A stretch of DNA of 64,000 nt from Desulfurococcales archaeon (GCA_027022365.1 JALVYU010000026.1:32001-96000), one strand, 5' to 3'. Shown: positions 48,557 through 62,711, counted from the first letter of the stretch. A program made the numbers and translations. Notes: generated by a model not told the origin, from the sequence alone.

Positions 48557-48731
48557 GCAGAAGGGCCCCCTTTCGAAGCCGAAACGATCATACACTATAT
48601 AAATGAAAAATCTTCTTTGAAAATTCTAAAGAAGTATTATTTACTTGTTTAAATTGCTAGGAATATTTAATTTCTAGTTTTAAAGCTGGATAAATTAATA
48701 TCTTTAATGAAGCTGGCAAAATAAGGGATAT

Positions 48732-49467
48732 GTGATGCTGAGGAAAGCTATCTCGTTTGAAGACCGAGAGGCTATGGTTCTTCTTATCGCTGGTATAATC
48801 TTTATTCTGTTGGTGGGAATAAACTCTGTACTATATTATTATGGCAAGCTAGATGAGCTTTTTGTACATATTTCATTAATGGCTGTATATATTTTCACTG
48901 CGCTAGCGGTTCTATACCAGGCACTCTATACAAAAAGAATGGTTATAGAATCTAAGAGGGTACAAGCATGGCAGATAATAAGTAGTCATCTTTATCATCA
49001 TATAGCTGCATCAATCATGACCTTTAAGCTTGTAGCTAGAGATCTGGATAAATTATCTTCTAAGAAACATGCCGACTGGGAAACTATCAAAAAACTTTTC
49101 AGAACCCCTTTCGTAACCCATAATGCACCCTATATAATACAACCATATATAAAACCTAAACCAGGATTAGGCGCTGGAAGAGGAGCAGAAATATATCGCT
49201 ACAATCCCCGCATTTAATGAAGCCATAGAAGTGCTAGTAAAAGCATGTATAGTTTTAGGCGAGAAGGTGCTCAAAAAAGAATTAGAAAAACTCCGTGAAC
49301 AAATAAAAATGTTAGTAGTCGAAGAACCTAAACCTGAAAATATAAAAAGTATATTAACAACTTTAAAGAGCCATATCAAATCATTATCGGAAAAAGCCGA
49401 AGAAATATTCCATATACCTATAACTGAGCCTTTACTCGAAAGCTTTCAACCAAATATAGACAACTAA
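48732..49467 (+). pseudogene. membrane protein gene split by a +1 frameshift at ~49170
   Basis: Removing one G from TTAGGCG joins the 161-aa and 78-aa ORFs via ALEEEQKYIATIPAFNEAIEV. Confidence 0.6.
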
Positions 49468-49901
49468 TTATCATGTATCGAGTTTAATACATTGTAAAAT
49501 AGTAGTGTTGAAACTATTGAAACTATTTTATTCTTAATATTGATCGAGAAACACTGAAATATAAAGTATTTAATCTTTCGTTTAATCTTTCGGTCCCAAA
49601 GGCCAAAATAAAATTAACAAGCATTGTATCGTTTATGAATGCGATGAATTCTAGGCCATAATAATCCATATTCCACGAGTTTGTACGACCTGCCTATAAG
49701 CTTTTTCAGGGTATTAACTAATGCTCCAAATTGTGAAATATCATTAGGTTCAAGCCTACGCTTTGCTGTATTTATTCCACTTATTACTTGTATAGAAAAC
49801 GGAAATGCAGGGATCCCTAAATATATCAGCCGTTAGAAACCGTACAAAATAGAAGTTAATAAATAAATAATTATGCTTAACGAGTATATGGTGATACAAT
49901 A

Positions 49902-50828
49902 ATGGTTTCTGAAAATTTTTCATCATTTTCATTCGATGATCCCTCATTAATTCTTTCCATAATTTCGATCATTATATCAGCAACATCAGTTGCTGTAACC
50001 TTTCTATATAATAAACGCATGTACAAGCTAGCCTACGAACAAGACCTGTTAATAAGGAAGGAAAAACACTTCAATGAACTAAAGAAATACGTGATCGAGC
50101 CCCTTTTATATGAGGATAAGCGTTCAAGCTTTAATCCATACTTCTTCATAGACATGGTAAGATATCATTATCCTGAAGTAGGCGACCAAATAAAGCAACT
50201 AGTAAAGAAGTATAAATTATATGAAAACCTTGAAGAAAACATAGTAAATACTTGTCTTGCAATAATTAATGAAAAGGGAAGAAAGGAATCAATAGAATTT
50301 TCAATTACGAAATATAAATTAAAAGAACATTTGTCATCCATTATTCGTATTTTAATACACAATGAATTACAGTATCAAAAATACATAGACATAAAGCCTC
50401 CGCTAGAATTTCCTGTAGACGCCATACAAAATAAGGACAAACATAAATTAATTCAAATAACAGTTAGATATGAACTACGCTTCCTAGGGAGTACTATATA
50501 TGTGCATGAAGACGCTGATATAGTACTGAAAGCCAAAGAGGTTTTCTTAGAGGCACTTAATGAGATGCGAAACGATAAAAAATTAAGAAAACTAGCTGAG
50601 CAATATCAAAAAATAGGCCTAGAATTACCCAGATTGAACAGTAAAGTACGTAAAGAACTCATTCGCTTGCTCGAACAACCACCCACAGCACTAAAACTAG
50701 TTAACAATGTGCTATGCCCTTATATGAAAGGACAAGAAGATAAAGAATTTAGTAGGGAGGAAAAGACTATGATAGAGAATCTTTTAAAGAATTTCCCGGG
50801 AGAAAAAAGGGGATTTATTGTAGATTAA
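49902..50828 (+). CDS. N-terminal TM anchored helical protein
   Basis: GGTGA RBS; single TM then charged helical domain. Confidence 0.7.
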   Translation: MVSENFSSFSFDDPSLILSIISIIISATSVAVTFLYNKRMYKLAYEQDLLIRKEKHFNELKKYVIEPLLYEDKRSSFNPYFFIDMVRYHYPEVGDQIKQLVKKYKLYENLEENIVNTCLAIINEKGRKESIEFSITKYKLKEHLSSIIRILIHNELQYQKYIDIKPPLEFPVDAIQNKDKHKLIQITVRYELRFLGSTIYVHEDADIVLKAKEVFLEALNEMRNDKKLRKLAEQYQKIGLELPRLNSKVRKELIRLLEQPPTALKLVNNVLCPYMKGQEDKEFSREEKTMIENLLKNFPGEKRGFIVD

Positions 50829-51020
50829 TTTATTATTAAGTATTGTTCATCACTATCCTGTATCTATAATTAATTTTTGAAAAAGACTCCCACATAAGCT
50901 AATTCCTACCAAAGTCTCCTTTGAAGCCATGAGTTAAAGCTTTAAATTCCTGACCTTATTGATGTGGTTATGAAAAGGTTTATATGGTATGACAAGAATA
51001 CTTTCATCCTAGGTGATAGT

Positions 51021-51326
51021 ATGACCATCGTTAAGAAGACTGTGGCGCTTCATCCTTTAGTTGATAGGGCTGTTAGAAGGCTATGGGCTAGACTGATTGA
51101 GGCTGGACTAGATGCTTCCTATTCTACGGCATTAAACTTATTGGTCATGCTTTCACTTTGCTCCGAGAACCTGGAGGACATAGGACTTGATAAAAAACAA
51201 TGTATGGGCCTCATGCTAGACATACTATTCAGAAACCGTGAAGACATAGAATTCAGCGAACACATGGTCAGAGCAGAAGAAATACTCACGAAGAAGATCA
51301 TACAGTATTTGACAAGAAAACAGTAA
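51021..51326 (+). CDS. small RHH-like DNA-binding protein
   Basis: KKTVALHP..D..VR...SYSTALN; GGTGA RBS before ATG 51021. Confidence 0.55.
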   Translation: MTIVKKTVALHPLVDRAVRRLWARLIEAGLDASYSTALNLLVMLSLCSENLEDIGLDKKQCMGLMLDILFRNREDIEFSEHMVRAEEILTKKIIQYLTRKQ

Positions 51327-51329
51327 AAC

Positions 51330-51425
51330 AGGCCGGGGGGATGATGAGCGCTCGGCGGTTTTACCCTCCAGCCCCACATGGAGGGGATAAAGAGCTTTTA
51401 AGGCGCTGACCCATACCCCCGGCCT
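51330..51425. ncRNA. structured RNA candidate with C and D boxes
   Basis: 10-bp terminal stem AGGCCGGGGG/CCCCCGGCCT, ATGATGA at 51341, CTGA at 51406, inner CCCTCCA/TGGAGGG hairpin. Confidence 0.5.
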
Positions 51426-51539
51426 CCAATATACTACTATTTTTCAAAGCCTTATATAAAGATATGAATTCAGGAATTTCCGGAGGCCCTACTCCATGAT
51501 CGAGATGAGCATCGAGATTGAAGGTAAGAGAGTTTATTT

Positions 51540-51881
51540 CTATCCTTTACTCTCGCGGAATGGCCTCAATGATTTTGTCTCATTAATTACTAGCACGGGC
51601 TTTAATACCGTGGTCGCTGGGTTTACACATAGTGTTATAGAGCTTGAGAATATGTTAGTAGATAATATCTCTACTATGAATGAAATCGGGTTTTCTATAT
51701 CATGAACAGTAAGAGCCAGGGCCTCACTCAGCCGGCAACCAGTATACACTAAGATCGATACAAGCGCTAGATCGCGTATACCGTATTGCCCCCGCTTATA
51801 AGCTCTATACGCTCTCTTCAAAGCATCAACCAAAGCCTCAAACCGGGGAACATCATCAAGCTTTAGTTTAGGACCACTCAA
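51540..51881 (-). pseudogene. truncated tyrosine recombinase
   Basis: RDLALVSILVYTGCRLSEALALTVHDI (box I) followed by unrelated sequence; no HxxR/Y. Confidence 0.75.
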
Positions 51882-52085
51882 ACATTTCCACCTACTAATA
51901 TTATGATTTAAAAAACGGAAATTAAACTTCGGGATCTAATAACGTCCCATTTCCGAAAAGTATTGAAAACGGAAATAAATTCACTTATTGAATATCGATT
52001 CCTCTATGTGTTCAGAGTTAGGTTTATTGATATTCAAGTATAAATACAATGTATACTTAGAAGGTGAAAAATACCCAAGATCACC

Positions 52086-52481
52086 ATGAGTGTTTCCCAA
52101 GAAATACTAGCCAGACTGGGAATAGACCGTAGAAGAGCAGCTTCTCTCCCCAAAGAACAAATACTAAAACTCAGCAAAACCGTTGAAAGAACCACCTATA
52201 ACGAGAAAGTTCTCATAAAACTATCCCAGAAGCTCTATAATGAGCTCTCAACACCCTTAGATAAAGCAATAAAGGATGAAACAGAGAAGCTCACAATAAT
52301 AGATCTTATCCGCACAATATCAAATCTAGACATTCTCTACGAACTAATCAAAGGAGAAGCAAACACACCAATAGAGGACAAGATCCTAAAATACATAGGA
52401 CTTGAAATAGAACTACTAAAAACTACCCTAGAAAAAAGATACGAGCTATTCAAAAACTCGAACGCGCCAAAGGAGAAATAA
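52086..52481 (+). CDS. hypothetical helical protein
   Basis: 131-aa ORF with A/C-rich element-type codon usage. Confidence 0.6.
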   Translation: MSVSQEILARLGIDRRRAASLPKEQILKLSKTVERTTYNEKVLIKLSQKLYNELSTPLDKAIKDETEKLTIIDLIRTISNLDILYELIKGEANTPIEDKILKYIGLEIELLKTTLEKRYELFKNSNAPKEK

Positions 52482-52537
52482 GGTTACGTAGAGTCGAAAA
52501 CATTCTCTTATCTATAGAAAAATCTATCGAACATGAA

Positions 52538-52732
52538 ATGCTAACAGATATACTAAAAACCTCTATACATCTCCTAGCCTATGTAACAGGCCTAATACAA
52601 TCAGTAGACATAATAGGAAAGAATCTAAGAGAAGCAAACAAAGAATTATCACAAATGCTAGGCAACCTCCTAAACATATTAGAAGAAATAAATCCTCAGA
52701 AAAGGAACCGATCCTCAGAAATGTATGTATAA
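52538..52732 (+). CDS. hypothetical small protein
   Basis: 64-aa ORF. Confidence 0.4.
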   Translation: MLTDILKTSIHLLAYVTGLIQSVDIIGKNLREANKELSQMLGNLLNILEEINPQKRNRSSEMYV

Positions 52733-52760
52733 AATTATTCAAAAGGTCAAGGTATCATAA

Positions 52761-53837
52761 TTAGTTGACCCCTTCATATTTAACTATTAGCATATCTGAA
52801 GTAAACGCTATTGGAAAAAGATTAAGTTCTTCAGAAATTTTAACTATTTCTTCTTTTATAGCGTTTAAGATAATATTGTTTAATAGTTTGTCTTTCTTTT
52901 GATGAATATTGATTATATAATTAGCTGTTTCCTGTATAGTATATAAATTAAAGTCAGGAATAATTTCAATTATATTAAATCCCTCATTAAGTATATTTTC
53001 AACAATCTTCCTTTTATCTTTTGAAGCTACGTAGGGATACATTATATAGCCCTTTCTAAGACCATTAATCTTAAGAGCTTCTTTTCCACGTTTTATCCAA
53101 GTTAATAACTCTTTCATTGAATAATACGGATCGCATTCAAAGATATCGAAACGTCCTACGAGATCACGAGGTAAGGGATCAAATAGATCGTGATGTACTG
53201 TTTCTAGTGAAATTCCGTATTTATTTCCAATTTTGTTTAATTTATCTAATAAATCGGAATCCAAATCGATGACATATATTTTTAGATCAATTTCGTATTT
53301 TTTGAATAATATGCCAAGAGCAATGCTAAGACAATCATCATCGCCCAACATTACAGCATTTTTGAGTTCGAAACCATTATCGATTAATATTTTAATAGCT
53401 CTATTTACTATCGAATAAACATGTGCAGGGTATTGATTTAAATGACGTTTCAGTTTTATAGAGTTTCGAACATCATTTATCGCAGTTATTATTTCATAAA
53501 AAGTTTCTGAAGGAATATTTAATAACAATCTATTGTTAAGTGTTATTATTTTTTCTTCTTTAAGTATCTTCAATAAAGTATAAGAAGGTAAAATTCCTAT
53601 TTTTCTGACTATGTCACAAATAGACTTAAAATCAGAATTAGAAATAATAACTCTTGTCATGCATTCATAAAATATCTCATAAGGTATTTTTGAATAAAGA
53701 GCATTCCTTATTTCCTCTATATCTTTATATGTATTCGTATAAAGATATATTCCTATTTTTTCGAAGATCCTTATTATATATTTGGTTAATTGGTTAATGA
53801 ACGCATTATAGAGTTTATAACTCGTATTTGAATCCAT
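52761..53837 (-). CDS. BpsA-like (DUF43) aminopropyltransferase, SAM-dependent methyltransferase fold
   Basis: NQ, R, LGDDD.LSIAL, IDLD..L, HDLFDPLP, FD.F.CDP, IIPDFN.Y match branched-chain polyamine synthase motifs. Confidence 0.75.
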   Translation of the reverse strand: MDSNTSYKLYNAFINQLTKYIIRIFEKIGIYLYTNTYKDIEEIRNALYSKIPYEIFYECMTRVIISNSDFKSICDIVRKIGILPSYTLLKILKEEKIITLNNRLLLNIPSETFYEIITAINDVRNSIKLKRHLNQYPAHVYSIVNRAIKILIDNGFELKNAVMLGDDDCLSIALGILFKKYEIDLKIYVIDLDSDLLDKLNKIGNKYGISLETVHHDLFDPLPRDLVGRFDIFECDPYYSMKELLTWIKRGKEALKINGLRKGYIMYPYVASKDKRKIVENILNEGFNIIEIIPDFNLYTIQETANYIINIHQKKDKLLNNIILNAIKEEIVKISEELNLFPIAFTSDMLIVKYEGVN

Positions 53838-53854
53838 AAACTACACCCTATCTA

Positions 53855-54991
53855 TTATATTATGCCTTGATGAAAAAGTTTGTTTGAAAATGATTTTATA
53901 TAATGATATATATATTTCATAAGCTCACATTTATAGGTTACAGGAATATGTATATTGTTATAAAAATATTTACTCTCCAAGGGGCATTCACCACCACAGA
54001 TATTAATAGCTTTACACTTTAGACACTTAGGAATATTTACTGTTAATCTTTCATTCCATGTTTTAAAAGGATCTAATTTATCTAGTTCATTTAAATCCCT
54101 AATATTATTCACATCAATAAATTCAGAAGTTAAGGCAGCACAAGGACTAATGTACCCTCCCGGTGAATAAATAATATGAATACCACATCCAAAACAATCA
54201 GGAATAGGTGGTTCTTTTTTTAAATAATAGGATAGTGCTTCAGTTAACTTAGAGCTTATATAGGCATGCTTCTGGATGCTAACATTTAGTGCGTCCAGAA
54301 GAGCTTTAAATAACATCTGTGGGTCAAGAACTTCGTTTCTATTTCTTGCTATAGGTATATTTAAGTCTATGTACTTTGTTCGAGTAATATTTAATATATG
54401 AATTAGTGATTCTTTTATATGATTAATATTGTGTTTATGTATAGTACATGCTATTCTAAATCTTATATTAAATTTTCTTAAAAGATTAATAGCACTAACT
54501 ATCTCATGATACGAACCTGATCCGTCAGGTTTAATTCTCATGAGATCATTGATATTTTCTGGTCCGTCCAGGGATATTGCTATGTTTATATTTAATTCTT
54601 TTAAAAGTTTCACGATTTTTTCATCTATAAGTGTCCCGTTAGTTATAATAGAGATCGTATACGGGCCAGTATCATGTCTTAATATTATCTTTAATACTTT
54701 TTTAAACAATTCTTTATAGAGGAGAGGCTCTCCTCCATAAAATCTATATACTCTTCTTTTGTTTAAATTATGCCTTATGAACATTTTTAGAAAATATTCA
54801 AACTTATTAAAGTTAAATGTTTCATTTAAATTAAGTTTATGAACCAGATAACAATATCTACATCTAAGGTTACAGTGCCAAGTTGGTATTATATATAATA
54901 CTGAGTATTTTAATGAATCTCTATATTTTTTTATGCTTTTTATTAATTTTGATGTTTCATCGCTCAAAAAGCCAACACCTAGGATCTCCAT
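53855..54991 (-). CDS. radical SAM/SPASM enzyme (anSME/ranthipeptide maturase-like)
   Basis: CNLRCRYC, FYGGEPLL, TNG, SLDG...ND..R..GS, SPASM C..CLKC...ICGGECP...C. Confidence 0.88.
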   Translation of the reverse strand: MEILGVGFLSDETSKLIKSIKKYRDSLKYSVLYIIPTWHCNLRCRYCYLVHKLNLNETFNFNKFEYFLKMFIRHNLNKRRVYRFYGGEPLLYKELFKKVLKIILRHDTGPYTISIITNGTLIDEKIVKLLKELNINIAISLDGPENINDLMRIKPDGSGSYHEIVSAINLLRKFNIRFRIACTIHKHNINHIKESLIHILNITRTKYIDLNIPIARNRNEVLDPQMLFKALLDALNVSIQKHAYISSKLTEALSYYLKKEPPIPDCFGCGIHIIYSPGGYISPCAALTSEFIDVNNIRDLNELDKLDPFKTWNERLTVNIPKCLKCKAINICGGECPLESKYFYNNIHIPVTYKCELMKYIYHYIKSFSNKLFHQGII

Positions 54992-56024
54992 GGTTTAAGT
55001 CCATATAATAAATATAAGACATTGCTGGACAACCACCACATATCTTTTGGAATTTACAGAATCGGCATTTACCTATAGATTCCCTTGCTACTTGCCTGTA
55101 ATATATGATCTTTTTCTTTATAAACAATTTAGTATTTAGAATATTGCCTATAGGGTCAGGTATATATAAGCAAGGAAGGATTGTTCCATCAGGCATCATA
55201 TATATCTTAGATATACACATGCCACAATATTTCTCTAAGTTGAACGTTTCTTTTATTCTTGTTGTATTAATTTGTTCTAATTGTTTATTATATTTTTTAA
55301 GGATATATGGAACTATAAAAGGAATGGTAGTTTTTACTTTAAAATCATTACGACCGTTGAACATATATTGAATATTTTTCTTAATAATAATTTCAAATAA
55401 TCTTTCATAATCTTTTTTATTTAGTATAATATCTTTAAGATTCTTGGCGCGACCTACCGGGATCAAATCGGTTAAAACGATGCCTTTAGAACCTATATTA
55501 TAAGCAAAATCGCAAAGACTATCTACATAGTTCAAATTCGTTTTTGTGACAACAGATGCAATACTAAAAGGTATTTCGTGCTTTTTTAATAATTTTAAAG
55601 TTCTTAGAACTTTTTTGAAAGTACCTCTGCCCCTGAACACATCATTTATATATTCTAATGGTGCATCCAGACTTATGATTATATCTATATAATCTTTTTC
55701 TTTAGCTAATAAATTGACAAATTGTTCTTTAATCAAAGTTCCATTAGTATTGATTCCTACCCTTATACCATAATCAATAAGTCTTTTAACTATTTCCGTA
55801 AATTGATTACATAAAAAGGGTTCTCCTCCAGTTATACCTATTTCTTTTATATTTAAATTTGAAAGTTTTTCCACGATTTCTAACTTTATACCATAATTGA
55901 TTTCTTTGAATAATTTACTTAAATAAACATTTGAACAATATGAGCAGTTTAAATTACACCTGAAAGTAACAACCCAAGTTATGTATTTAATATTTTTTAA
56001 AAAATCATATATTTTTTCATGCAT
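54957..56024 (-). CDS. radical SAM/SPASM enzyme (PqqE/NirJ-like)
   Basis: CNLNCSYC, TGGEP, TNGT, SLD, RGRG.F, PVGRA, PDG..LPC, CRFC...CGGC...DPRC. Confidence 0.88.
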   Translation of the reverse strand: MHEKIYDFLKNIKYITWVVTFRCNLNCSYCSNVYLSKLFKEINYGIKLEIVEKLSNLNIKEIGITGGEPFLCNQFTEIVKRLIDYGIRVGINTNGTLIKEQFVNLLAKEKDYIDIIISLDAPLEYINDVFRGRGTFKKVLRTLKLLKKHEIPFSIASVVTKTNLNYVDSLCDFAYNIGSKGIVLTDLIPVGRAKNLKDIILNKKDYERLFEIIIKKNIQYMFNGRNDFKVKTTIPFIVPYILKKYNKQLEQINTTRIKETFNLEKYCGMCISKIYMMPDGTILPCLYIPDPIGNILNTKLFIKKKIIYYRQVARESIGKCRFCKFQKICGGCPAMSYIYYMDLNHGDPRCWLFER

Positions 56025-56053
56025 CTGTAGATCACTATTTAATATTATAGATA

Positions 56054-56194
56054 TTATGTTACGCCAGGACTAATTTGACACTTGCATTTAGCACATGCAG
56101 TCAATACATTATTTATTATCAACTTTAATACATCATCTTTATTGATAATAATTTCCTCCTCCGAAATTTTTGGATTAGCTAACTCAGCCAACAT
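56054..56194 (-). CDS. putative RiPP precursor peptide (46 aa)
   Basis: MLAELANPKISEEEIIINKDDVLKLIINNVLTACAKCKCQISPGVT; GGTGA RBS, TATA box, first gene of the rSAM operon. Confidence 0.75.
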   Translation of the reverse strand: MLAELANPKISEEEIIINKDDVLKLIINNVLTACAKCKCQISPGVT

Positions 56195-56226
56195 TGTCAC
56201 CTAATTTATTGAAATGTTTCATATTA

Positions 56227-56234
56227 TATATAAA
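56227..56234 (-). promoter_or_regulatory. TATA box of precursor/rSAM operon
   Basis: TTTATATA on minus strand about 33 nt upstream of ATG 56194, preceded by A-rich BRE-like bases. Confidence 0.55.
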
Positions 56235-56384
56235 ATTTATTGTTGGTCTTAGTTCAGTGTTATTAAGATAATTTATAAATACCATAATTGAAATATAGAG
56301 AACGAAGTACCAATAATATGGTTGCTTGACCAAGAATATTGGATATTAATTGATATACTGATCTTATATGATATTGGTGAAATA

Positions 56385-57665
56385 ATGTTTAGAAGAACGT
56401 ATGTATCATCGCTTTTTCTCGTATTGGTTGTTACTGTTGTTTTGCGGAGTATTGGTGATGTTGTTGAGGAGGTTACTGTTCCTTGGCAGGTGCTTGATTT
56501 TACGAATAGTATTTTTCTTGTTGGTGGTGTTTTTGTGTCGTATTTGTTGCCTTGGGTTTTTATTCCGTTTATTGCTGGTAGAGTTATTGATATTGCTAGG
56601 AATAAGTCCTTTGTTGTTGCTTTTTGTATGATTATGCAGATCTCGTCTGTTTTATTGATTATGTTCATGCTTTCTACTGGTTTAGAGACCTTATGGTTTC
56701 TCGGAATAGTCTATTTATCAATAATTGTTATAAGTACTACTGACTCTATACATAGGTATTTTGTGTTTACCAGCATTCCTGAACTAGTGGGGAAGAATGA
56801 GGCTCTCCTTAACAAGTTCAATAGTATTACAGAGCTTTCATCGGGAATAGGAACTATAGTCATGTATGTTCTCTGCGGATACTTGGTAGCAGTATATGGT
56901 TATAAGACGCTCTGGATAGACGTTTTATGCTTAACCATTATAGCTCTTCTACTAATCGATCTCAGCAGATCATTCAAAAAGAAACGCTTACGCTTCTACA
57001 AGGGTGCGTCTATGAATAAGGGCAAACAAATAAAATTTAAAGATCTGCTCAGTACTATAAAAAGGGATCCATTGGTGTTTTCTTACCTCGTTGTCGCTCT
57101 GGGTTTCAATTTCTTCACAGCACCCGTTTCTTTAGTTCTGATAAATTATCTTTACAATACCGTCGATGAACCCACTAAGTACTATGGCTTTATCATGGCG
57201 ATTTCAACTCTTGGAGCAATAATAGGTTCTGGCATAGTAGCTACGTATTCTAAAAAACTGAAATATATTTCTTGTATCATTATCGGGTTACTTGGTGAAG
57301 CAGTAGCTGTTGCAGGAGTATATTTCATAATAGCATATTCTAACGAATATTATAATTGGATACTTACCTTGTTATTAGTCACGGGTATGTATATGATAAT
57401 GGCTATTATGGGAGCAGTGCTGAATATAGGAGCTGATACATTGTTTCAAATGAGGATCCCAGAAGAAGTTCTAGGAAGTTTCAGGGGATTATTTGATAGT
57501 TTGGCCACTATTCCTATAGCATTATCATATATAGTTGTATCAACAATACTAGAGACGTGGGGATACACTATTATAACAGCATCACTAATGGGAATAGGAT
57601 CCATAATAATAGCCTTACTATACATAATCGCATATTCTATATTAATAAAGAAATTAAATACATAG
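56385..57665 (+). CDS. MFS transporter (Mef/DHA3-like exporter)
   Basis: About 12 TM helices, G..ID...K motif A, IPELV, Q..IPEE.LG; GGTGA RBS before ATG 56385. Confidence 0.85.
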   Translation: MFRRTYVSSLFLVLVVTVVLRSIGDVVEEVTVPWQVLDFTNSIFLVGGVFVSYLLPWVFIPFIAGRVIDIARNKSFVVAFCMIMQISSVLLIMFMLSTGLETLWFLGIVYLSIIVISTTDSIHRYFVFTSIPELVGKNEALLNKFNSITELSSGIGTIVMYVLCGYLVAVYGYKTLWIDVLCLTIIALLLIDLSRSFKKKRLRFYKGASMNKGKQIKFKDLLSTIKRDPLVFSYLVVALGFNFFTAPVSLVLINYLYNTVDEPTKYYGFIMAISTLGAIIGSGIVATYSKKLKYISCIIIGLLGEAVAVAGVYFIIAYSNEYYNWILTLLLVTGMYMIMAIMGAVLNIGADTLFQMRIPEEVLGSFRGLFDSLATIPIALSYIVVSTILETWGYTIITASLMGIGSIIIALLYIIAYSILIKKLNT

Positions 57666-57669
57666 CAGG

Positions 57670-58851
57670 ATGATTATGATGCAAAAGTCTCGTTTAAAAC
57701 ATTTACAGATATTACCAACATTATCGTGTAATATGAACTGTGATTACTGTTACATAAAATTTGCTCCTATGACACAAATTAATTATAAAATGAGTAATGA
57801 TACAGTTGATCTGATAGTTGAATCTATACGCCAAAAAAAGCTTCAATTATCTGATAATGCTACAATTACATTTCTGGGTGGGGAAGTAACTCTTTGTCCA
57901 GAAATTATAGATAGATTTTTTATAAAGCTTCACGACAATCTAAAGAAGAATAAATATATTATCAATATCCAAACTAATGGTTTAGAAATAAGTTCCCTCA
58001 TAGAGATATTACGAAAATTCAAAGATATTTTACCGCAAATAAACATAACGATTAGCATAGATGGTTTTGAAAAAATTCATGACTTTTATAGAAAGGACAA
58101 AAATGGCAACGGGACATTCAAGAGGATCCAAAAGAATTTAATAATGTTATTGAGATTATTGCATCCTAGCAAGATAACTATTCAGTCAACATTAACAAAT
58201 AAAACAAAAAATATTCATAATTTTATAAAAACCTTTCACTCATATGGTATAACAAAATTTCAACTAGTACCTGTAATCACTCCTCCAAGTCTTAGTCATA
58301 TGAGAATTAAACCAACGAATTACCTTGATGAATATATCAAAGTCATCGATTACTATTTTGAGTGCTTAAAAAAAGAAAATCCATTTACAGAAGATTTAAT
58401 ATCTCATTATTTATACAGAATATTGTCTTTAACTAATATCTTGACTAATCCAACTAATTTTCCTGAAAATATATGTCCTATAGGGGTTTCTGTTCTTGCA
58501 ATCGATCCTAAAGGATATGTATATCCCTGTTCAATGTTTGTAGGTTTTAAAGACTATTGTCTCGGAAGGATTGATAATATAGATAAGACTAAAGTAGAAA
58601 ATATAGTTCGGAAAGTAATACAGGGAAGAAGGAAATATTGTAGAAATTGTAAATTAATTAATATCTGTGATCATGGATGCGTAGCAAGAAACCTTATAGA
58701 AAAAAGTGATATAGCTATATTCCCTAAAGAATATTGTAGTATTAAAAGAAATATAATATTATATATTATCAAAAAGCTTTCTAGTATATTACCGAATCTC
58801 AATCCATATTTTCAACATATAGAAAAAGAATTAAGTTTACAGTATTTATGA
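57670..58851 (+). CDS. radical SAM/SPASM enzyme (anSME/ranthipeptide maturase-like)
   Basis: CNMNCDYC, FLGGE, QTNG, SIDG...HD..R...GNGTF, C..G...DPKG.VYPC, CRNC...C..GC...C. Confidence 0.88.
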   Translation: MIMMQKSRLKHLQILPTLSCNMNCDYCYIKFAPMTQINYKMSNDTVDLIVESIRQKKLQLSDNATITFLGGEVTLCPEIIDRFFIKLHDNLKKNKYIINIQTNGLEISSLIEILRKFKDILPQINITISIDGFEKIHDFYRKDKNGNGTFKRIQKNLIMLLRLLHPSKITIQSTLTNKTKNIHNFIKTFHSYGITKFQLVPVITPPSLSHMRIKPTNYLDEYIKVIDYYFECLKKENPFTEDLISHYLYRILSLTNILTNPTNFPENICPIGVSVLAIDPKGYVYPCSMFVGFKDYCLGRIDNIDKTKVENIVRKVIQGRRKYCRNCKLINICDHGCVARNLIEKSDIAIFPKEYCSIKRNIILYIIKKLSSILPNLNPYFQHIEKELSLQYL

Positions 58852-59321
58852 ATATAATTTTTAAATATCTTTGATAATCTAAGCAAATATTTTTTACCAA
58901 GCAGAGTTCTTTAGAAAATCTATAGCAACTATGTTGCTATAAATAACATCGTATTATATCCTTACAGCTTGACTACGAGAACGTATTCCATAATGTGTCG
59001 TTCAAAATTTACAATGGTCACGATGATTATACCGATTATCAATAAAAAATACTAATAATATAGATATTAACTCTCATATGAATTGACTGATTAATCTTAT
59101 CATAACTACGAAGGACATTGATCTAGCCCTATAGTTTGAGCGTATCGAATAGCCTTAGAAGAATAATGGTCCCGGTTAATATATGCATATACTAGAAGTC
59201 CAAGAATTCTATCTACTAAATTTTCTTGTCGCACCGCTTCCCCTCATTAATATTATAGACCTATATAAGCTGTCAAAACTTCTTCTAACAGGGTATTAAA
59301 TAATAATATACGGATTTGCGT

Positions 59322-61175
59322 CTAATAGGAGTGGGTAATTATATCAAGGGCTTTTTCTAGATCTATTTTTCCACCATACATTTGTATCGTTAATAGTAGT
59401 TTCACTGCCCATTCGCCGTGATGATCTCTTATTTGTGTTAAGAGTCTCTTGTCCAGTCCACGCATCGTGCCTGCAGGTGTTCGTGTTCTAATGTATTTCC
59501 ACAGGTCCGGGCTGTAATAGACCATGCCTTTCTCCAGGTCTACGGATATTAGTCCTACTTCTATTAGCTCGTATAGCTTTTTCCAGCCTGGATGTCTGGT
59601 GTAGTCTTCATATTTGGTCTCCTTGTCTAGTACTAGCTTGTTCTTCTTGAGGGCTTTGATGAGCTCTGGTATTATTTTCTTGATGACTATTTCGCCGCAC
59701 TGTATCACGGCCTGCTTGTAGAGGGGCTCGATAACGTTGACTAGGCCGGCTTCCCATAGTTGTCTTAGTTGTTGCTTGAGTCCTGGGCCTAGGCCTCTCC
59801 ACGCGGCCTCAACGATCTTTTCATAATCCTTCTCGGACAAAGTACATACTACTGGCTGCTTATTGAACACCGTCTCCACTAGAACCCGTTTCAGCCCCGC
59901 CTTAACCTCTGCTATCTCCCGGTGTAACTTGGCTATTGAGCCAGCAACATCTACGTGGGCCTGGAAGAGATTCAATAAGTCCTCAACACTCATCTCATTC
60001 TTTCTCCTACGGATCCTCCTCTCAATTCTCAGCGGTCCATCACCGTCGACACCACCCTTTAGGTAGGCAACCAAGTCCCCGGCCGTGAACTGGCCGGCCC
60101 GGAACTGGAGGCTACCCCTCCACAAATCACAGTGCAGGTCGACACGTAGAACAGATAAATCAACAACCCCAACCTCTACACCAAGAACCCCGGAAAGCTC
60201 CCCAACCAAAGCCTCCAGAAACCCCTCAAGCTCCCCGGGACCACTAAAAGACCCAGAAACAATAACCTCACAACCACCACTATATCCACACAAAACCCTA
60301 ACCCTACGACCCAAAACCTCAAACACAAACCCAAGCTTACCACCCATACCACTACCAACAACCCGAAAACCCCTCCTCGACAAACACACAAAACCACAAT
60401 GCCCCGGAACATACAAAACCAAACCATTAACACCACAAGAACCATCCTCACCACTAACACCGCCAAACCCAGCCGCAGGCGGGGCCCCTCCCCCAGCCTC
60501 CCCGATCACATTTTGCCCGGTATCAGAACCCTTGCTGGCGTCGGGGGCTTTACTACTACATATTAATGGTAATAGTGAACAAATCCTATTGGAAACCCTG
60601 TAGAGTCCCCGCTTAATCCTCTCGACATAGCCTGTTCTACGGAGCCTCCACAGATACTTCTTAACAAGATGGGGATCCAGTTTCAGGTAGAAGGCTAGAG
60701 TAGAAGGAGTAAACACCCGGAGCCTAGCTGCAGCCTCCAGGATCCTGCGGGAGACCATGCCTAGGAGACTAGGTCTAGGATGCCTTGAGACACTACTTGA
60801 GACACCCGGACCAGGAGTCACATCAACTCCATGAGACAAAGGACTAGAAGTCACTTCAAGACCATGAGACACCCTAGCAGAAGTCTCTTCACAACATGAG
60901 ACAACTCCATGAGACACCTGGTTGCTGGAGCACTTCTTCCTAGAGACAGGTAATAAGCCAGCAGCTGTCTCATTATAGGCTATATGAGACATTTGATTAG
61001 ACCTAGACCTCTTCGGAACATAGACTCCCAGAGCGATAAGCTTCCTACGAACCCAATCCTTAGAGATATAGAGGTTAAACCTAGAGGAAACCATACGGGC
61101 TATCTTACGGAGACTAAACCCTTGACGGTAGAGCTCTACGGTATACAAGAGAACAGGATCCAGGGACTGGGCCAA
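59322..61175 (-). CDS. putative replication initiator (HTH + wHTH + Rep_trans-like motifs)
   Basis: N-terminal HTH, wHTH (LWRLRRTGYVERIKRGLY), RVDLHCD...YLK...LRIER. Confidence 0.5.
   Translation of the reverse strand: MAQSLDPVLLYTVELYRQGFSLRKIARMVSSRFNLYISKDWVRRKLIALGVYVPKRSRSNQMSHIAYNETAAGLLPVSRKKCSSNQVSHGVVSCCEETSARVSHGLEVTSSPLSHGVDVTPGPGVSSSVSRHPRPSLLGMVSRRILEAAARLRVFTPSTLAFYLKLDPHLVKKYLWRLRRTGYVERIKRGLYRVSNRICSLLPLICSSKAPDASKGSDTGQNVIGEAGGGAPPAAGFGGVSGEDGSCGVNGLVLYVPGHCGFVCLSRRGFRVVGSGMGGKLGFVFEVLGRRVRVLCGYSGGCEVIVSGSFSGPGELEGFLEALVGELSGVLGVEVGVVDLSVLRVDLHCDLWRGSLQFRAGQFTAGDLVAYLKGGVDGDGPLRIERRIRRRKNEMSVEDLLNLFQAHVDVAGSIAKLHREIAEVKAGLKRVLVETVFNKQPVVCTLSEKDYEKIVEAAWRGLGPGLKQQLRQLWEAGLVNVIEPLYKQAVIQCGEIVIKKIIPELIKALKKNKLVLDKETKYEDYTRHPGWKKLYELIEVGLISVDLEKGMVYYSPDLWKYIRTRTPAGTMRGLDKRLLTQIRDHHGEWAVKLLLTIQMYGGKIDLEKALDIITHSY
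60785..60991. repeat. TGAGACA iteron-like array
   Basis: Seven direct copies (60786, 60798, 60832, 60865, 60897, 60910, 60985) and one inverted (60966). Confidence 0.8.
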
Positions 61176-61418
61176 AGCAATTACCCCTCGTGACGAGAGA
61201 TGACTATGTAGGCGGAATCACTGTATTTCTTCACGAGTCCTAACCAGCGGGTAACTGGTATGTGCCAAGCCTTGATAATACCTCCACGCCTACGTAGCAC
61301 AACAAGAACCAGCACACCGCGGAAAATGATTTTGACTAAACGCCTCCGAATCAATGCCTTAACCCTCAGGAAACACTTGTACGGCTACGTTTTCCGGGCA
61401 ATATTCTCGAGTAAAGTG

Positions 61419-61574
61419 CTAGGCGTAGGCCTTCGCCCTCCTCTTAGCGAGCAGGTATTTCACCAGGTAGGCTTCAGGACCGAGTCTAGAAAGAACCCTC
61501 TCCACGATAGCCGGATCCTCCTTCTGGATCTCCTCAATAAGTCTCCGGGCCTCCTCGAGGGCCCGCTTATTCAT
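61419..61574 (-). CDS. 51-aa hypothetical protein (possibly 5' part of a decayed gene)
   Basis: MNKRALEEARRLIEEIQKEDPAIVERVLSRLGPEAYLVKYLLAKRRAKAYA; start overlaps upstream stop. Confidence 0.5.
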   Translation of the reverse strand: MNKRALEEARRLIEEIQKEDPAIVERVLSRLGPEAYLVKYLLAKRRAKAYA

Positions 61575-62190
61575 TCCCCACAGCCTCTTCGAGGAGGGTC
61601 TTATGCTTGTTAATGATGGAGCGGGCTATGCGGAGGAGCCGATTAAACGTTGTTTCGCTGACGAGGGGTTTCAGCCCATCCAAGTCTCTATAGGAGAAAG
61701 TATAGCGGCCTCGGAGAAGCTCGTAGACGATATAGGATAGCAGGTATCTGCCGCGAATACTCCTATTAATAGCCAGAGGCTCGACTTCCCCGAGAACACC
61801 GATGATCCTGTCAAGGACCGGGCGTAGCCCCCTTTTCTCAAACCAGTCGAGAACCTCGATGCTCTTCCGAGAATACACAGTAAGCACAAACCTGCCCTGC
61901 CTAAGCAGCCTCTCCTCATCCACCATGTACCCCCGACTCGTAATAGACCTGGCGAGCCTGAGTAACCTGTAGTGTTTACGGAGCCTATGCTCAAGCCTCC
62001 TAAGCTCCCTATCGGCCCGGTAACCGTAGCGTCTAAGACGTTTACGCTACTCGATCCTAGCCCATTCCCTGGCCTCCTCCCCTACGTGAACCGGGCCGTA
62101 GTCGTAGATCCTGTCGACAACCTCCCCGGTATCCATGCATACTACTTCTCCACGCGTATAATCCCATATGAGCTGTCTACACTCATCCAT
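61567..62190 (-). pseudogene. TFB-type zinc-ribbon protein with in-frame TAG at 62047-62049
   Basis: MDECRQLIWDYTRGEVVCMDTGEVVDRIYDYGP; frame open after TAG into the 119-aa ORF; GGTGA RBS. Confidence 0.7.
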
Positions 62191-62422
62191 AGCTATCACC
62201 CAGCTCCTCCACGCACTCCTCCAACAGCTCCCTCTCCAGCCTGCACTCCCTATCCCACTCGAGACTGTGGACCCAGCACTCCAGGAGAGAATCAATAAAT
62301 CCCCTGCACCGAGCCCTGACAACACTGTAAGGCAACCCATACCTATCCGCAAGCTCCAAAACAAGATCCTCAACACGATGCACTAACACGGTTAATGGCT
62401 CGATATACATAAAAGAGATCAC
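62183..62422 (-). CDS. small hypothetical protein
   Basis: Overlaps neighbours in operon fashion; start uncertain. Confidence 0.5.
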   Translation of the reverse strand: MISFMYIEPLTVLVHRVEDLVLELADRYGLPYSVVRARCRGFIDSLLECWVHSLEWDRECRLERELLEECVEELGDSYG

Positions 62423-62685: not shown

Positions 62686-62711
62686 GTTTCTTACCTCACT
62701 TTTTAAACAGA

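What the first reader, a model, noticed from the sequence alone, without database searches (positions are those of the whole stretch)
52761..58851. Candidate archaeal RiPP cluster: precursor + 3 rSAM/SPASM + BpsA-like aminopropyltransferase + MFS, carried on a mobile element
Seen: a very AT-rich island with a minus-strand operon (46-aa peptide, rSAM, rSAM, BpsA-like) and a divergent pair (MFS, third rSAM). Known: SPASM rSAMs beside short Cys-containing peptides install thioether or C-C crosslinks (sacti-/ranthipeptides), and MFS proteins export such products. Inference: a multiply crosslinked and possibly aminopropylated peptide from a thermophilic crenarchaeon. I do not recognise this enzyme combination from described RiPP classes.
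Basis: partly seen in the sequence, partly recalled or inferred. Interest (0 to 1): 0.92.

Follow-up and report, generated by a model that had tools for sequence, protein, structure and literature searches.

The report
Orphan archaeal radical-SAM peptide gene cluster
A very AT-rich six-gene island on an integrated conjugative element of a hydrothermal-vent crenarchaeon most likely makes a small cysteine-crosslinked, possibly aminopropylated, exported peptide, but nothing closely similar exists elsewhere, so the chemistry remains inferred.

Summary
Window 52761-58851 holds a minus-strand operon: a 46/48-aa peptide, two radical-SAM/SPASM enzymes and a BpsA_C-domain protein. A divergent pair encodes an MFS exporter and a third radical-SAM/SPASM enzyme. 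All catalytic motifs are intact. At 29% GC it is the most AT-rich 6 kb of the genome.

It lies in a segment of about 30-34 kb that three congeners lack. That segment starts at an integrase and carries conjugation-type ATPase genes, so the mobile-element claim holds.

The RiPP reading is the best explanation (about 0.55) but rests on anatomy, not conservation. The peptide and the BpsA-like protein have no close relative in the libraries searched, and the two radical-SAM enzymes tested (rSAM2, rSAM3) match nothing above 34% identity. No RiPP recognition element or leader protease was found. Relatives of the BpsA-like protein normally sit beside SAM decarboxylase and acetyltransferase genes (polyamine context), not radical-SAM genes.

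One independent hint supports peptide tailoring. A metagenome contig (L148) carries radical-SAM/SPASM, then a PqqD peptide chaperone, then a BpsA_C gene 35% identical to the window's.

Crosslink type and aminopropylation are untested. Verdict: a plausible new variant of radical-SAM RiPP clusters; interest is moderate.

The parts
56054..56194 (-). Candidate precursor peptide, 46 aa (48 aa if the GTG at 56200 is the start): MLAELANPKISEEEIIINKDDVLKLIINNVL-TACAKCKCQISPGVT. Inferred split: leader of about 31 aa and a 15-aa core with 3 Cys, 2 Lys, 2 Thr and 1 Ser.
   Evidence: ORF; sequence context. The 46-aa form is called as a gene in the public protein collection but has no relatives there. No Pfam or NCBIfam match. 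Shuffle statistics.
54957..56024 (-). rSAM2: radical-SAM/SPASM enzyme, 355 aa, of the MftC/ScmE/AhbD/NirJ-like branch. It lies directly downstream of the peptide.
   Evidence: Pfam. NCBIfam best hits are AhbD 151 bits (cut-off 500), ScmE 124 (400) and MftC 123 (265). Motifs. Best non-self relative is 31% identical. Nearest solved structures are SkfB and anSME.
53855..54991 (-). rSAM1: radical-SAM/SPASM enzyme, 378 aa, PapB/DynA/anSME-like. Its start overlaps the end of rSAM2 by 35 nt.
   Evidence: (PapB 128 bits against 340; DynA 125 against 450; anSME 120 against 349).
52761..53837 (-). BpsA_C-family SAM/dcSAM-dependent alkyl(aminopropyl)transferase, 358 aa. GDDD at residues 165-168 and DPYY at 236-239. 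The N-terminal part (about 140 aa) has an unresolved fold.
   Evidence: Pfam PF01861 on residues 151-307. PDB 2qm3 and 5xnc at E 4e-11 and 7e-10. Alignment A1. Atlas neighbours carry PF01861. AF2 model pLDDT is 80-94 over most of residues 161-260 and below 50 for residues 24-106.
56201..56387 (.). Divergent intergenic (promoter) region between the peptide operon and the MFS operon. A TATA-like TTTATATA lies at 56234-56227 (minus strand), about 30 nt upstream of the GTG at 56200. That placement would give a leaderless or near-leaderless peptide mRNA.
   Evidence: Sequence read. The promoter reading is inferred from general knowledge of archaeal promoters and was not tested.
56322..57665 (+). 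MFS transporter of the drug:H+ antiporter / EntS-like type, 447 aa from TTG. The real start is probably the ATG at 56388.
   Evidence: PF07690 61.7 bits and PF05977 29.6 bits. TIGR00900 95.5 bits, below its cut-off of 319.6.
57670..58851 (+). rSAM3: radical-SAM/SPASM enzyme, 393 aa, the most PapB/CteB-like of the three. It has no N-terminal RRE domain.
   Evidence: PapB model 162 bits against a cut-off of 340. In the match to CteB (5wgg), query residue 4 aligns with chain residue 91. Best non-self relative among 1.84 billion representatives is 28% identical with E 1e-38, and no listed hit exceeds 34% identity. Motifs.
45425..64000 (.). Window part of a strain-specific integrated conjugative-plasmid-like element. 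It continues to about window-equivalent 75.9-79.1 kb. A second part lies at C26:247678 onward, across a 170-kb inversion.
   Evidence: Congeners G005 and G004 join window 45424 directly to C26:247677. No DNA match to 45425-64000 in 0 of 3 congeners. Synteny resumes at L031:15128 (G005) or 11922 (G004). HerA/VirD4-like ATPase, TFB-like and TBP-like genes. TraG/VirB4-like, VirB11-like and ParB genes.
45410..45424 (+). 15-nt att-like core TCAGCCCTCACACGG at the left junction. Its only other copy in the genome is inverted, at C26:247663-247677.
45475..46623 (+). Tyrosine integrase, 382 aa, the first gene inside the element.
   Evidence: PF00589 81.2 bits.
47885..48496 (-). Serine recombinase (resolvase/invertase), 203 aa.
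   Evidence: PF00239 111.9 bits.
51540..51881 (-). Fragment of a tyrosine integrase (113 aa), about 0.9 kb from the AT-rich cluster.
   Evidence: PF00589 25 bits, just below its cut-off of 27.1.

Best explanation
This is a horizontally acquired, so far unique, biosynthetic cluster for a ribosomally made and post-translationally modified peptide (RiPP). It is carried as cargo on an integrated conjugative element of a hydrothermal-vent crenarchaeon.

Proposed mechanism. The 46-aa product of 56054-56194 is the precursor. An N-terminal leader of about 31 aa presents a 15-aa C-terminal core (TACAKCKCQISPGVT) to up to three RRE-less radical-SAM/SPASM enzymes. These enzymes abstract hydrogen atoms from the core and most likely join the three cysteine sulfurs to carbons of neighbouring residues, giving sactionine- or ranthionine-type thioethers. 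The MftC/ScmE-like rSAM2 may instead perform a different oxidation or C-C coupling. The BpsA_C-family enzyme then transfers an alkyl group to an amine of the peptide (Lys36, Lys38 or a new N-terminus). That group is most likely aminopropyl from decarboxylated SAM, because the GDDD motif is kept. The MFS protein exports the product or protects the producer.

Shown: the genes, their motifs, the operon packing, the foreign composition and the mobile-element context.

Inferred: that the small ORF is translated, that it is the substrate, every chemical step, and export.
For: 1. Anatomy. A short ORF with a Cys-rich C-terminus ends 29 nt upstream of rSAM2 on the same strand. It is followed by tightly packed rSAM1 and the BpsA_C gene, with a divergent MFS+rSAM3 pair.
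2. All three radical-SAM proteins have complete CX3CX2C and SPASM cysteine sets. Their best curated-model hits are peptide maturases such as PapB, DynA, CbpB, ScmE and MftC. The nearest solved structures are the thioether synthase CteB and the peptide/protein-modifying anSME and SkfB.
3. The specific ORF configuration is rare in shuffles: 2 of 20000, with post hoc criteria.
4. The BpsA_C protein keeps GDDD (165-168), the Asp of the D-P motif (D236, matching Tk-BpsA D225) and Y299 (matching Y290). In BpsA these residues position dcSAM's aminopropyl group and activate the acceptor amine (PMC12979288, passages read).
5. The host has two AdoMet decarboxylase genes, so dcSAM is available. AdoMet_dc is also the commonest neighbour of the nearest relatives, 28 of 150, which supports dcSAM use by this branch.
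6. Independent precedent for a BpsA_C enzyme in a peptide-maturation context: metagenome contig L148 has radical-SAM/SPASM, then a PqqD-family chaperone (PF05402 37.9 bits against a cut-off of 23.4), then a BpsA_C gene. That gene is 35% identical to the window's (E 8e-26) and shares its F-x-C-D-P motif.
7. The MFS belongs to efflux-type families.
8. All ORFs are intact despite the foreign composition. Contig pieces with few or no differences from the window occur in vent metagenomes of three further studies.
Against: 1. No conservation evidence.
- The peptide has no relative in 5.8 billion proteins, in JGI metagenome contigs or elsewhere in its own genome.
- rSAM3, rSAM2 and the BpsA-like protein have best non-self identities of 28-34%, 31% and 30%.
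- rSAM3 was not found in 40 relatives. rSAM2 has no closer match than 32% identity in 400 genomes of the phylum.
2. ORF length alone is unremarkable: 388 of 2000 shuffles.
3. No RiPP recognition element was detected.
- rSAM3 and rSAM1 lack the N-terminal domain of about 90 aa found in CteB.
- No PqqD match lies in the cluster.
- The BpsA-like N-terminus gave no family match, shows no similarity to the L148 PqqD and folded with pLDDT below 50.
4. The cluster has no leader peptidase.
5. Relatives of the BpsA_C protein rarely neighbour radical-SAM genes. Counts were 3 of 80 genome loci (two of them weak), 1 of 80 metagenome loci and 3 of 150 immediate neighbours. In L062 the pairing sits in a cluster that looks like small-molecule biosynthesis.
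6. The acidic C-terminal cluster that carries aminopropyl groups in Tk-BpsA is not evident. In addition, E259 aligns with Val.
7. The core has no Asp or Glu. From recall, these are the acceptors used by PapB.
Confidence: 0.55

Rival explanations
1. Small-molecule pathway. The BpsA_C enzyme and one or more radical-SAM/SPASM enzymes build or modify a polyamine-like or cofactor-like metabolite, which the MFS moves across the membrane. The 46-aa ORF is spurious, or a regulator unrelated to the chemistry.
For: - The PF01861 family's only characterised activity is on polyamines (PMC12979288).
- The nearest relatives sit beside AdoMet decarboxylase (28 of 150) and GNAT (13 of 150) genes.
- In L062 a BpsA_C gene neighbours a radical-SAM/SPASM gene inside a cluster with a carbamoyltransferase, a methyltransferase, an FkbH-like protein and an ACP. 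No obvious precursor is present.
- rSAM2's best curated hits include the tetrapyrrole enzymes AhbD and NirJ2.
- The window cluster has no RRE and no protease.
- ORF length is not significant.
Against: - Three different SPASM enzymes, two of them nearest to thioether/peptide maturases, next to a Cys-rich C-terminal ORF in the canonical precursor position.
- L148 links this BpsA_C branch to a PqqD peptide chaperone.
- The window cluster has no AdoMet_dc, GNAT or other polyamine gene.
Confidence: 0.15
2. The product is peptide-derived but is not a thioether antimicrobial. The peptide is matured into a redox cofactor or signal, in the manner of mycofactocin or PQQ. rSAM2 (MftC/ScmE/PqqE-like) would do the key step, and the other enzymes would act on different residues (Lys, Thr or the C-terminus).
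For: - The named relatives of rSAM2 are mostly annotated as mycofactocin maturase or ScmE, at 26-29% identity. Curated models MftC (123 bits) and ScmE (124 bits) are among its best hits.
- The L148 radical-SAM enzyme also scores best against WgkB and MftC models and has a PqqD partner.
Against: - All scores are far below the family cut-offs: MftC 123 against 265 and PqqE 75 against 381.
- No MftB/PqqD partner and no MftD/E-type genes are present.
- The peptide does not end in the Val-Tyr of MftA (the MftA C-terminus is recalled).
- An efflux-type MFS and carriage on a conjugative element fit a secreted product better than a cofactor.
Confidence: 0.15
3. Silent or decaying cargo. The cluster was recently acquired from a low-GC donor and does nothing in this host.
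For: - Its GC is the lowest of the whole genome.
- It lies next to an integrase fragment.
- It was not found in any of the relatives searched.
Against: - All six ORFs are intact with every catalytic cysteine and motif.
- A TATA-like box sits at the right distance from the peptide start.
- The pieces of this DNA recovered from vent metagenomes of three further studies show few or no differences from the window. This shows the DNA persists but says nothing about expression.
Confidence: 0.1

Closest known systems
Thioether-forming radical-SAM/SPASM RiPP maturases (CteB, PDB 5wgg; the PapB family of ranthipeptide maturases; sactisynthases such as AlbA and SkfB)
   Same: rSAM1 and rSAM3 share the radical-SAM core plus a full SPASM domain with two auxiliary-cluster cysteine sets. 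CteB and anSME are their best PDB matches, and PapB is their best curated model. A Cys-rich short peptide is encoded alongside.
   Different: - Scores are less than half the PapB cut-off: 162 and 128 against 340.
- The N-terminal RRE of CteB is missing.
- The core has no Asp or Glu acceptors (PapB's acceptor preference is recalled).
- Three divergent enzymes, 25-29% identical to each other, serve one three-Cys peptide.
MftC / ScmE / WgkB / PqqE branch of SPASM enzymes, which work with a PqqD-type chaperone
   Same: rSAM2 aligns end to end with these models. Its database relatives carry those names. The analogous contig L148 has the chaperone.
   Different: rSAM2 is below every cut-off. The window cluster has no PqqD. 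The peptide is unrelated to MftA or PqqA, with no family hit.
BpsA, N4-bis(aminopropyl)spermidine synthase (EC 2.5.1.128; PDB 5xnc, 6j26)
   Same: PF01861 domain above its cut-off. The GDDD motif, the Asp matching D225 and the Tyr matching Y290 are conserved. The fold of the catalytic domain is modelled with confidence.
   Different: - Only 88 bits against the Pfam model, compared with 180-240 bits for the 15 full-length (338-551 aa) BpsA_C proteins found in the same phylum. The match covers profile positions 37-191 only.
- No NCBIfam hit.
- E259 aligns with Val, and no C-terminal acidic carrier cluster is evident.
- The N-terminal domain is different, with an insertion and without the CxxC.
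- The gene context is radical-SAM enzymes and a peptide, rather than AdoMet_dc or GNAT.
Aminopropylated microcin C-type peptide-nucleotides
   Same: This is the only RiPP context for aminopropyl groups that my literature searches returned. A B. subtilis variant is reported to use dcSAM. I saw only the title of Kulikovsky et al. 2025, in a reference list.
   Different: There the aminopropyl group decorates the phosphoramidate of a peptidyl-nucleotide, not a peptide side chain (recalled). The enzymes are not known to me to be PF01861 members, and the paper itself was not read.
CrpC/CrpA of Methanococcus voltae (archaeal radical-SAM/SPASM enzyme installing ranthionine crosslinks)
   Same: An archaeal SPASM enzyme acting on a Cys-rich ribosomal product encoded next to it (PMC13692751; abstract and section 8 read).
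   Different: CrpC has an RRE, belongs to TIGR04463 and modifies a large repeat protein. The window's rSAM1 and rSAM3 score only 80 and 70 bits against TIGR04463, whose cut-off is 525.

Membership tests
Radical-SAM/SPASM superfamily (PF04055 + PF13186) | CX3CX2C motif that binds the SAM-cleaving cluster | tested here: met
   rSAM1 residues 40-47, rSAM2 residues 23-30, rSAM3 residues 20-27. PF04055 scores of 75.6, 85.6 and 61.9 bits.
Radical-SAM/SPASM superfamily (PF04055 + PF13186) | C-terminal SPASM cysteine set for two auxiliary clusters (CX9-17GX4C, CX2CX5CX2-3C, plus a distal Cys) | tested here: met
   All three proteins have the motif set. The Pfam SPASM model itself passes only for rSAM3 (23.7 against 21.5). 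rSAM1 and rSAM2 align end to end with SPASM-family NCBIfam models.
RiPP biosynthetic gene cluster (generic) | A precursor peptide gene adjacent to the modifying enzymes, with a leader and a core | tested here: inconclusive
   A 46-aa ORF with a Cys-rich C-terminus lies in the canonical position. It has no homologue, no family match and no expression data.
RiPP biosynthetic gene cluster (generic) | A RiPP recognition element (PqqD-like domain), fused or stand-alone | tested here: not met
   rSAM3 and rSAM1 lack the N-terminal domain of CteB. No PqqD lies in the cluster. The N-terminal domain of the BpsA-like protein is unresolved. Not every radical-SAM RiPP enzyme needs an RRE (recalled).
PapB family ranthipeptide maturase (NF047865) | Score at or above the curated cut-off of 340 bits | tested here: not met
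   rSAM3 scores 162.3 bits and rSAM1 128 bits.
Sactipeptide / ranthipeptide class | Cys sulfur linked to an alpha, beta or gamma carbon in the mature peptide | not testable with these tools
   Needs mass spectrometry or NMR of the product.
Mycofactocin maturase MftC (TIGR03962) | Score at or above 265 bits, with MftA/MftB partners | tested here: not met
   rSAM2 scores 123.1 bits. No PqqD/MftB partner was found.
Anaerobic sulfatase maturase (TIGR03942) | Score at or above 349 bits | tested here: not met
   120, 77 and 100 bits for rSAM1, rSAM2 and rSAM3.
BpsA_C family (PF01861) | Domain score above the gathering cut-off of 27 bits | tested here: met
   87.7 bits on residues 151-307. Of 30 Atlas feature hits, 22 fall in PF01861-only clusters, and all ten best family-bearing hits share that family or clan.
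[quoted passage not shown] | GDDD motif that positions the aminopropyl group of dcSAM | tested here: met
   G165-D168 is invariant in the 17-sequence alignment A1 and aligned with the GDDD of 5xnc. Its role is taken from PMC12979288.
[quoted passage not shown] | Acceptor-site residues D225, E259, Y290 and Y316 | tested here: inconclusive
   D225 maps to D236 and Y290 to Y299, both conserved. E259 aligns with Val. Y316 lies outside the aligned stretch.
[quoted passage not shown] | C-terminal acidic cluster that carries aminopropyl esters (ping-pong mechanism) | tested here: not met
   The last 60 residues contain only scattered Glu residues (KEE, SEE) and no D/E cluster near the C-terminus.
Prokaryotic viperin (pVip) defence | Full-length match to a pVip model, with no SPASM domain | tested here: not met
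   Only the radical-SAM core matches (profile positions of about 2-198 of 257-262, 44-83 bits). SPASM domains are present.
Integrated mobile (conjugative) element | Absent from close relatives at a precise junction, with recombinase and transfer genes | tested here: met
   Junction at window 45424/45425 against G004 and G005. 0 of 3 congeners match 45425-64000. Integrase and resolvase. HerA/VirD4-like, TraG/VirB4-like and VirB11-like ATPases and ParB. A direct-repeat attL/attR pair was not found; only an inverted 15-nt core was.

The most novel reading that the evidence does not exclude
BpsA_C-family enzymes are an unrecognised class of RiPP tailoring enzymes. On this reading, they use decarboxylated SAM to put polyamine-like aminopropyl groups on lysine side chains (or the N-terminus) of a radical-SAM-crosslinked peptide. 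In the window's protein, the divergent N-terminal domain would do the leader-binding job that a separate PqqD protein does in the L148-type locus. The product would be a hyper-cationic, thioether-stapled peptide made by a hyperthermophilic crenarchaeon and spread by a conjugative element. To my knowledge it would be the first characterised RiPP from Thermoproteota.
Probability: 0.2. Interest if true: 0.8.

Novelty: new variant of a known kind. Interest (0 to 1): 0.55.

Why it matters
Radical-SAM RiPP clusters have been predicted across archaea by genome mining. One survey counted 962 biosynthetic clusters of all types in Thermoproteota and lists ranthipeptides and sactipeptides among the abundant archaeal RiPP classes (PMC12144867, passages read). 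That survey notes that few archaeal RiPP products have been identified; I recall none from a crenarchaeon.

If this cluster is active it would give three things:
- A tractable six-gene system for archaeal peptide natural products.
- Three very divergent RRE-less SPASM enzymes whose division of labour on a three-Cys core could be dissected.
- A possible new tailoring chemistry, dcSAM-dependent aminopropylation of a peptide by a polyamine-synthase relative. My four literature searches turned up no description of this.

Its carriage on a conjugative element also bears on how such traits move between hyperthermophiles.

Because it is a singleton with no comparative or expression support, its present value is as a hypothesis for the bench rather than as a finding.

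Tried and rejected
Complex prediction. rSAM3 (70-row alignment A3), three 4Fe-4S clusters, SAM and the peptide scored 0.02 and 0.05 against a mark of 0.32. The verdict was 'no answer'. This is not evidence either way.

Structure prediction. The BpsA-like protein was folded with the 17-row alignment A1. Mean pLDDT was 60, and residues 24-106 were below 50, so the idea that the N-terminus is an RRE or winged helix could not be assessed. No fold search was run on this weak model.

Expression. No RNA holder was listed for the stretch. The contigs laid from four other runs were short, at low depth, with few or no differences from the window. They therefore gave no variation for a selection test. 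The 'joints' reported had only 21-nt sides in AT-rich sequence and I disregard them.

Searches that found nothing:
- PADLOC gave only generic pVip core hits.
- IMG/VR scan with the BpsA_C alignment: none.
- Plasmid collection by tblastn: one unrelated 29%-coverage hit.
- tRNA scans of the window and of the next 20 kb: none.
- Direct repeats as att sites: none convincing.
- jackhmmer with two PqqD sequences over 160 loci and window 45-64 kb: only the query's own locus.

Limits of the neighbour surveys:
- Only the best 80 of 304 (genome contigs) and the best 80 of 320 (metagenome contigs) confirmed relatives were examined.
- Many contigs are short. The median metagenome locus is 6.3 kb.
- The Pfam tally used 150 of the 152 nearest-neighbour ORFs. 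The two for L111 were dropped at the 150-sequence limit.

Tools and material not available:
The contigs of P0002 (14.7 kb), P0155/P0301 (3.4-6.1 kb) and P0004 could not be inspected, and they may hold the most informative neighbourhoods.
- Supplements of the papers were not consulted.

Papers, and what I saw of each:
- PMC12979288: passages.
- PMC13692751: abstract, outline and section 8.
- PMC12144867: two passages.
- PMC13381572: one passage of its reference list only.
- All other papers: search listings only.

Full report
WHAT IS THERE.

On the minus strand, in order:
- A 46-aa ORF at 56054-56194, or 48 aa from the GTG at 56200.
- rSAM2 at 54957-56024 (355 aa), after a 29-nt gap.
- rSAM1 at 53855-54991 (378 aa), overlapping rSAM2 by 35 nt.
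- A 358-aa BpsA_C-domain protein at 52761-53837, after a 17-nt gap.

On the plus strand, across a spacer of about 120-190 nt:
- An MFS transporter at 56322-57665, which probably starts at the ATG at 56388.
- rSAM3 at 57670-58851 (393 aa), 4 nt after the MFS stop.

Pfam confirms Radical_SAM in all three enzymes, SPASM in rSAM3, BpsA_C (87.7 bits against a cut-off of 27) and MFS_1. A motif scan shows that each radical-SAM protein has CX3CX2C and the complete SPASM cysteine set.

The stretch has 29.0% GC. That is the lowest of all 1634 6-kb windows of a genome whose median is 44.9%.

THE PEPTIDE.

The ORF reads MLAELANPKISEEEIIINKDDVLKLIINNVLTACAKCKCQISPGVT. It is the only ORF in intergenic space within the cluster.

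A TTTATATA box lies about 30 nt upstream of the GTG. By general knowledge of archaeal promoters, that would give a leaderless or nearly leaderless mRNA.

I tried to quantify chance. A 46-aa ORF appears in 388 of 2000 shuffles of the spacer, so length means little. An ORF of 40 aa or more on the operon strand, ending within 60 nt of rSAM2 and carrying 3 or more Cys in its last 15 residues, appeared in 2 of 20000 shuffles. Those criteria were chosen after the fact.

The peptide has no family match and no relative in the 5.8-billion-protein collection, where the 46-aa form itself is recorded. It also has no relative in JGI metagenome contigs and none elsewhere in its own genome.

THE ENZYMES ARE ORPHANS.

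rSAM3:
- It was scored against 1.84 billion cluster representatives.
- Only two proteins reached E 1e-30: itself and a 764-aa double radical-SAM protein, 28% identical.
- It was not found in 40 relatives. The one other hit was 25% identical.

rSAM2:
- Its best non-self relative is 31% identical. Named relatives are called MftC or ScmE.
- In 400 genomes of the phylum the best match is 30-31% identical at 147 bits. That match belongs to a widespread 470-515-aa housekeeping-looking family, which also occurs in this genome on contig C31.

The BpsA-like protein found only one other protein, 30% identical over 51% of its length.

The three radical-SAM proteins are 25-29% identical to one another.

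Curated NCBIfam models rank peptide maturases first, but all far below their cut-offs:
- rSAM3: PapB 162 bits against 340.
- rSAM1: PapB 128, DynA 125, anSME 120.
- rSAM2: AhbD 151, NirJ2 136, ScmE 124, MftC 123.

The nearest solved structures are the thioether synthase CteB and anSME for rSAM1 and rSAM3, and SkfB and anSME for rSAM2. In the CteB match, rSAM3 residue 4 aligns with CteB residue 91 and rSAM1 residue 11 with residue 81. Neither therefore has CteB's N-terminal recognition domain.

THE BpsA-LIKE PROTEIN.

Residues 144-300 align with the P. furiosus homologue 2qm3, and residues 153-300 with T. kodakarensis BpsA 5xnc.

Using the review of BpsA (PMC12979288, passages) as the list of defining residues:
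- GDDD is conserved (G165-D168) and invariant in a 17-sequence alignment.
- The Asp equivalent to D225 is conserved (D236, in a DPYY motif).
- The Tyr equivalent to Y290 is conserved (Y299).
- E259 aligns with Val.
- No C-terminal acidic carrier cluster is evident.

Against the Pfam model it scores 88 bits over profile positions 37-191. The 15 full-length (338-551 aa) BpsA_C proteins found in other families of the phylum score 180-240 bits. PF01861 matched in 24 of 401 genomes, and none in the window's own family besides itself.

It is therefore a divergent family member that probably still binds dcSAM. It is not a canonical branched-chain polyamine synthase. The host has two AdoMet decarboxylase genes.

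Its first 140 residues or so align poorly with the winged-helix N-domains of relatives and match no family. They were modelled with pLDDT below 50.

DOES THE COMBINATION RECUR?

I took the 80 best BpsA_C relatives from one genome per prokaryote species and the 80 best from JGI metagenomes. I then scanned their flanks with the window's three radical-SAM proteins and its MFS.

Results:
- Radical-SAM neighbours appeared in 3 of 80 genome loci, two of them weak, and in 1 of 80 metagenome loci.
- An MFS relative appeared in 0 of 160.
- Among 150 nearest-neighbour ORFs of the genome loci, the commonest families were AdoMet decarboxylase (28) and GNAT acetyltransferases (13). Radical_SAM appeared in 3.

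The usual context of this enzyme family is therefore polyamine-type chemistry.

Two exceptions matter.
- L062 (a Clostridia MAG) has an AhbD/NirJ/WgkB-like SPASM enzyme next to a BpsA_C-zinc-ribbon protein and a GNAT. They sit in what looks like a small-molecule cluster with a B12-radical-SAM enzyme, a carbamoyltransferase, a methyltransferase, an FkbH-like protein and an ACP.
- L148 is an AT-rich 1814-nt metagenome contig. It reads radical-SAM/SPASM (WgkB/MftC-like), then a 91-aa PqqD-family protein (37.9 bits against a cut-off of 23.4), then a BpsA_C gene cut by the contig end. That gene lacks the N-terminal domain. It is 35% identical to the window's protein (E 8e-26) and shares its unusual F-x-C-D-P motif.

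PqqD proteins are peptide chaperones of RiPP pathways. L148 is thus the one independent sign that this BpsA_C branch has been recruited to peptide maturation. It also suggests, without showing, that the window protein's extra N-terminal domain could replace the chaperone.

THE MOBILE ELEMENT.

Housekeeping genes run up to window 45363: glutamate dehydrogenase, mannosyl-3-phosphoglycerate synthase, a Na+/H+ exchanger and rubrerythrin.

In two congeners (G005 and G004, 90-93% identical DNA) the sequence up to window 45424 continues directly into what is C26:247677 in this genome, in inverted orientation. A 15-nt core, TCAGCCCTCACACGG, sits at both breakpoints in inverted orientation and nowhere else in the genome.

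Window 45425-64000 has no DNA match in three congeners of 99, 93 and 69% completeness. Synteny resumes about 30-34 kb further on.

The strain-specific segment begins with a tyrosine integrase. It also carries:
- a serine recombinase and an integrase fragment;
- TFB-like and TBP-like genes, a transglutaminase-like protein and a HerA/VirD4-like ATPase.

The DNA beyond the other breakpoint carries TraG/VirB4-like and VirB11-like ATPases, ParB and a T2SSF-like protein.

I read this as one integrated conjugative-plasmid-like element split by a 170-kb inversion. Two elements, or an assembly join at a repeat, are alternatives I cannot exclude.

Within the element, the cluster's 29% GC contrasts with 37% to its left and 45-47% to its right. 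It is therefore cargo from a still lower-GC donor.

A protein 90% or more identical to the window's MPG synthase is labelled Crenarchaeota/Thermoproteota archaeon. The DNA occurs in runs labelled hydrothermal vent metagenome, from the likely source study and three others.

INTERPRETATION.

The most economical reading is a RiPP cluster:
- a leader-core peptide;
- SPASM enzymes of the kinds that crosslink cysteines;
- an amine-directed alkyltransferase with a dcSAM motif;
- an efflux pump.

I put this at about 0.55. Within it, thioether formation is at perhaps two in three, and aminopropylation of the peptide at somewhat under one in two.

The main rivals are:
- a small-molecule or polyamine pathway in which the ORF is irrelevant (0.15);
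- a peptide-derived cofactor or signal made by different chemistry (0.15);
- silent cargo (0.10).

None of the chemistry is shown.

COMPARISON WITH WHAT IS KNOWN.

Radical-SAM RiPP clusters are already predicted widely in archaea by antiSMASH-type mining (PMC12144867). An archaeal SPASM enzyme installing ranthionines has been characterised in a methanogen (PMC13692751).

Three things are unusual here:
- the enzyme set, three mutually distant RRE-less SPASM enzymes for one three-Cys core;
- the presence of a polyamine-synthase relative;
- carriage on a conjugative element.

Four literature searches returned no description of a PF01861 enzyme in a RiPP pathway. The only aminopropylated RiPPs they returned are microcin C-type compounds.

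I therefore rate it a new variant of a known kind, of moderate interest.

Noticed in passing
G000 contig C31:33234-33630 and 37455-38942 (L123:3235-3630 and 7456-8943): A second radical-SAM/SPASM protein (495 aa) lies about 4 kb downstream of a PqqD-family ORF (39.5 bits) on the chromosome. Homologues of this radical-SAM protein are widespread in the phylum, so it is probably a housekeeping maturase and not a second RiPP cluster.
   Followed up: partly
G000 contig C26:77424/77425 (window 45424/45425) and C26:247677/247678: There is a 170-kb inversion relative to congeners G004 and G005. Each breakpoint carries the same 15-nt core in inverted orientation, and each abuts conjugative-element genes. 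This suggests site-specific recombination between element ends, or an assembly join.
   Followed up: partly
L031:1052-2186 (window-equivalent 65052-66186): The integrated element encodes its own TFB-like (zinc ribbon plus HTH) and TBP-like proteins side by side.
   Followed up: no
L018-L021 (four genomes of the same phylum) and L062:8590-10283: A BpsA_C branch with a TDPPYT motif is fused to a C-terminal zinc ribbon and a GNAT acetyltransferase (544-551 aa). In a Clostridia MAG the same parts are adjacent genes inside a cluster with a B12-radical-SAM enzyme, a carbamoyltransferase, a methyltransferase, an FkbH-like protein and an ACP. Function unknown.
   Followed up: partly
L148:1-1814 (JGI metagenome contig): This contig carries a three-gene string: radical-SAM/SPASM, then a PqqD chaperone, then a BpsA_C enzyme without the usual N-terminal domain. 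It may mark an undescribed family of peptide-tailoring BpsA_C enzymes. The contig is cut at both ends.
   Followed up: partly
window 62276-62377 (-): A weak PqqD-like match (14.8 bits, E 0.06, below the cut-off) lies in a small ORF of the element, 3.4 kb from rSAM3. It is probably chance.
   Followed up: no
window 59322-61175 (-): A 617-aa ORF with a GC-rich, low-complexity middle and a weak AbiEi-type winged-helix match (23.8 bits) immediately flanks the AT-rich cluster. The sharp GC step there (27% to 51%) marks the cargo boundary.
   Followed up: no
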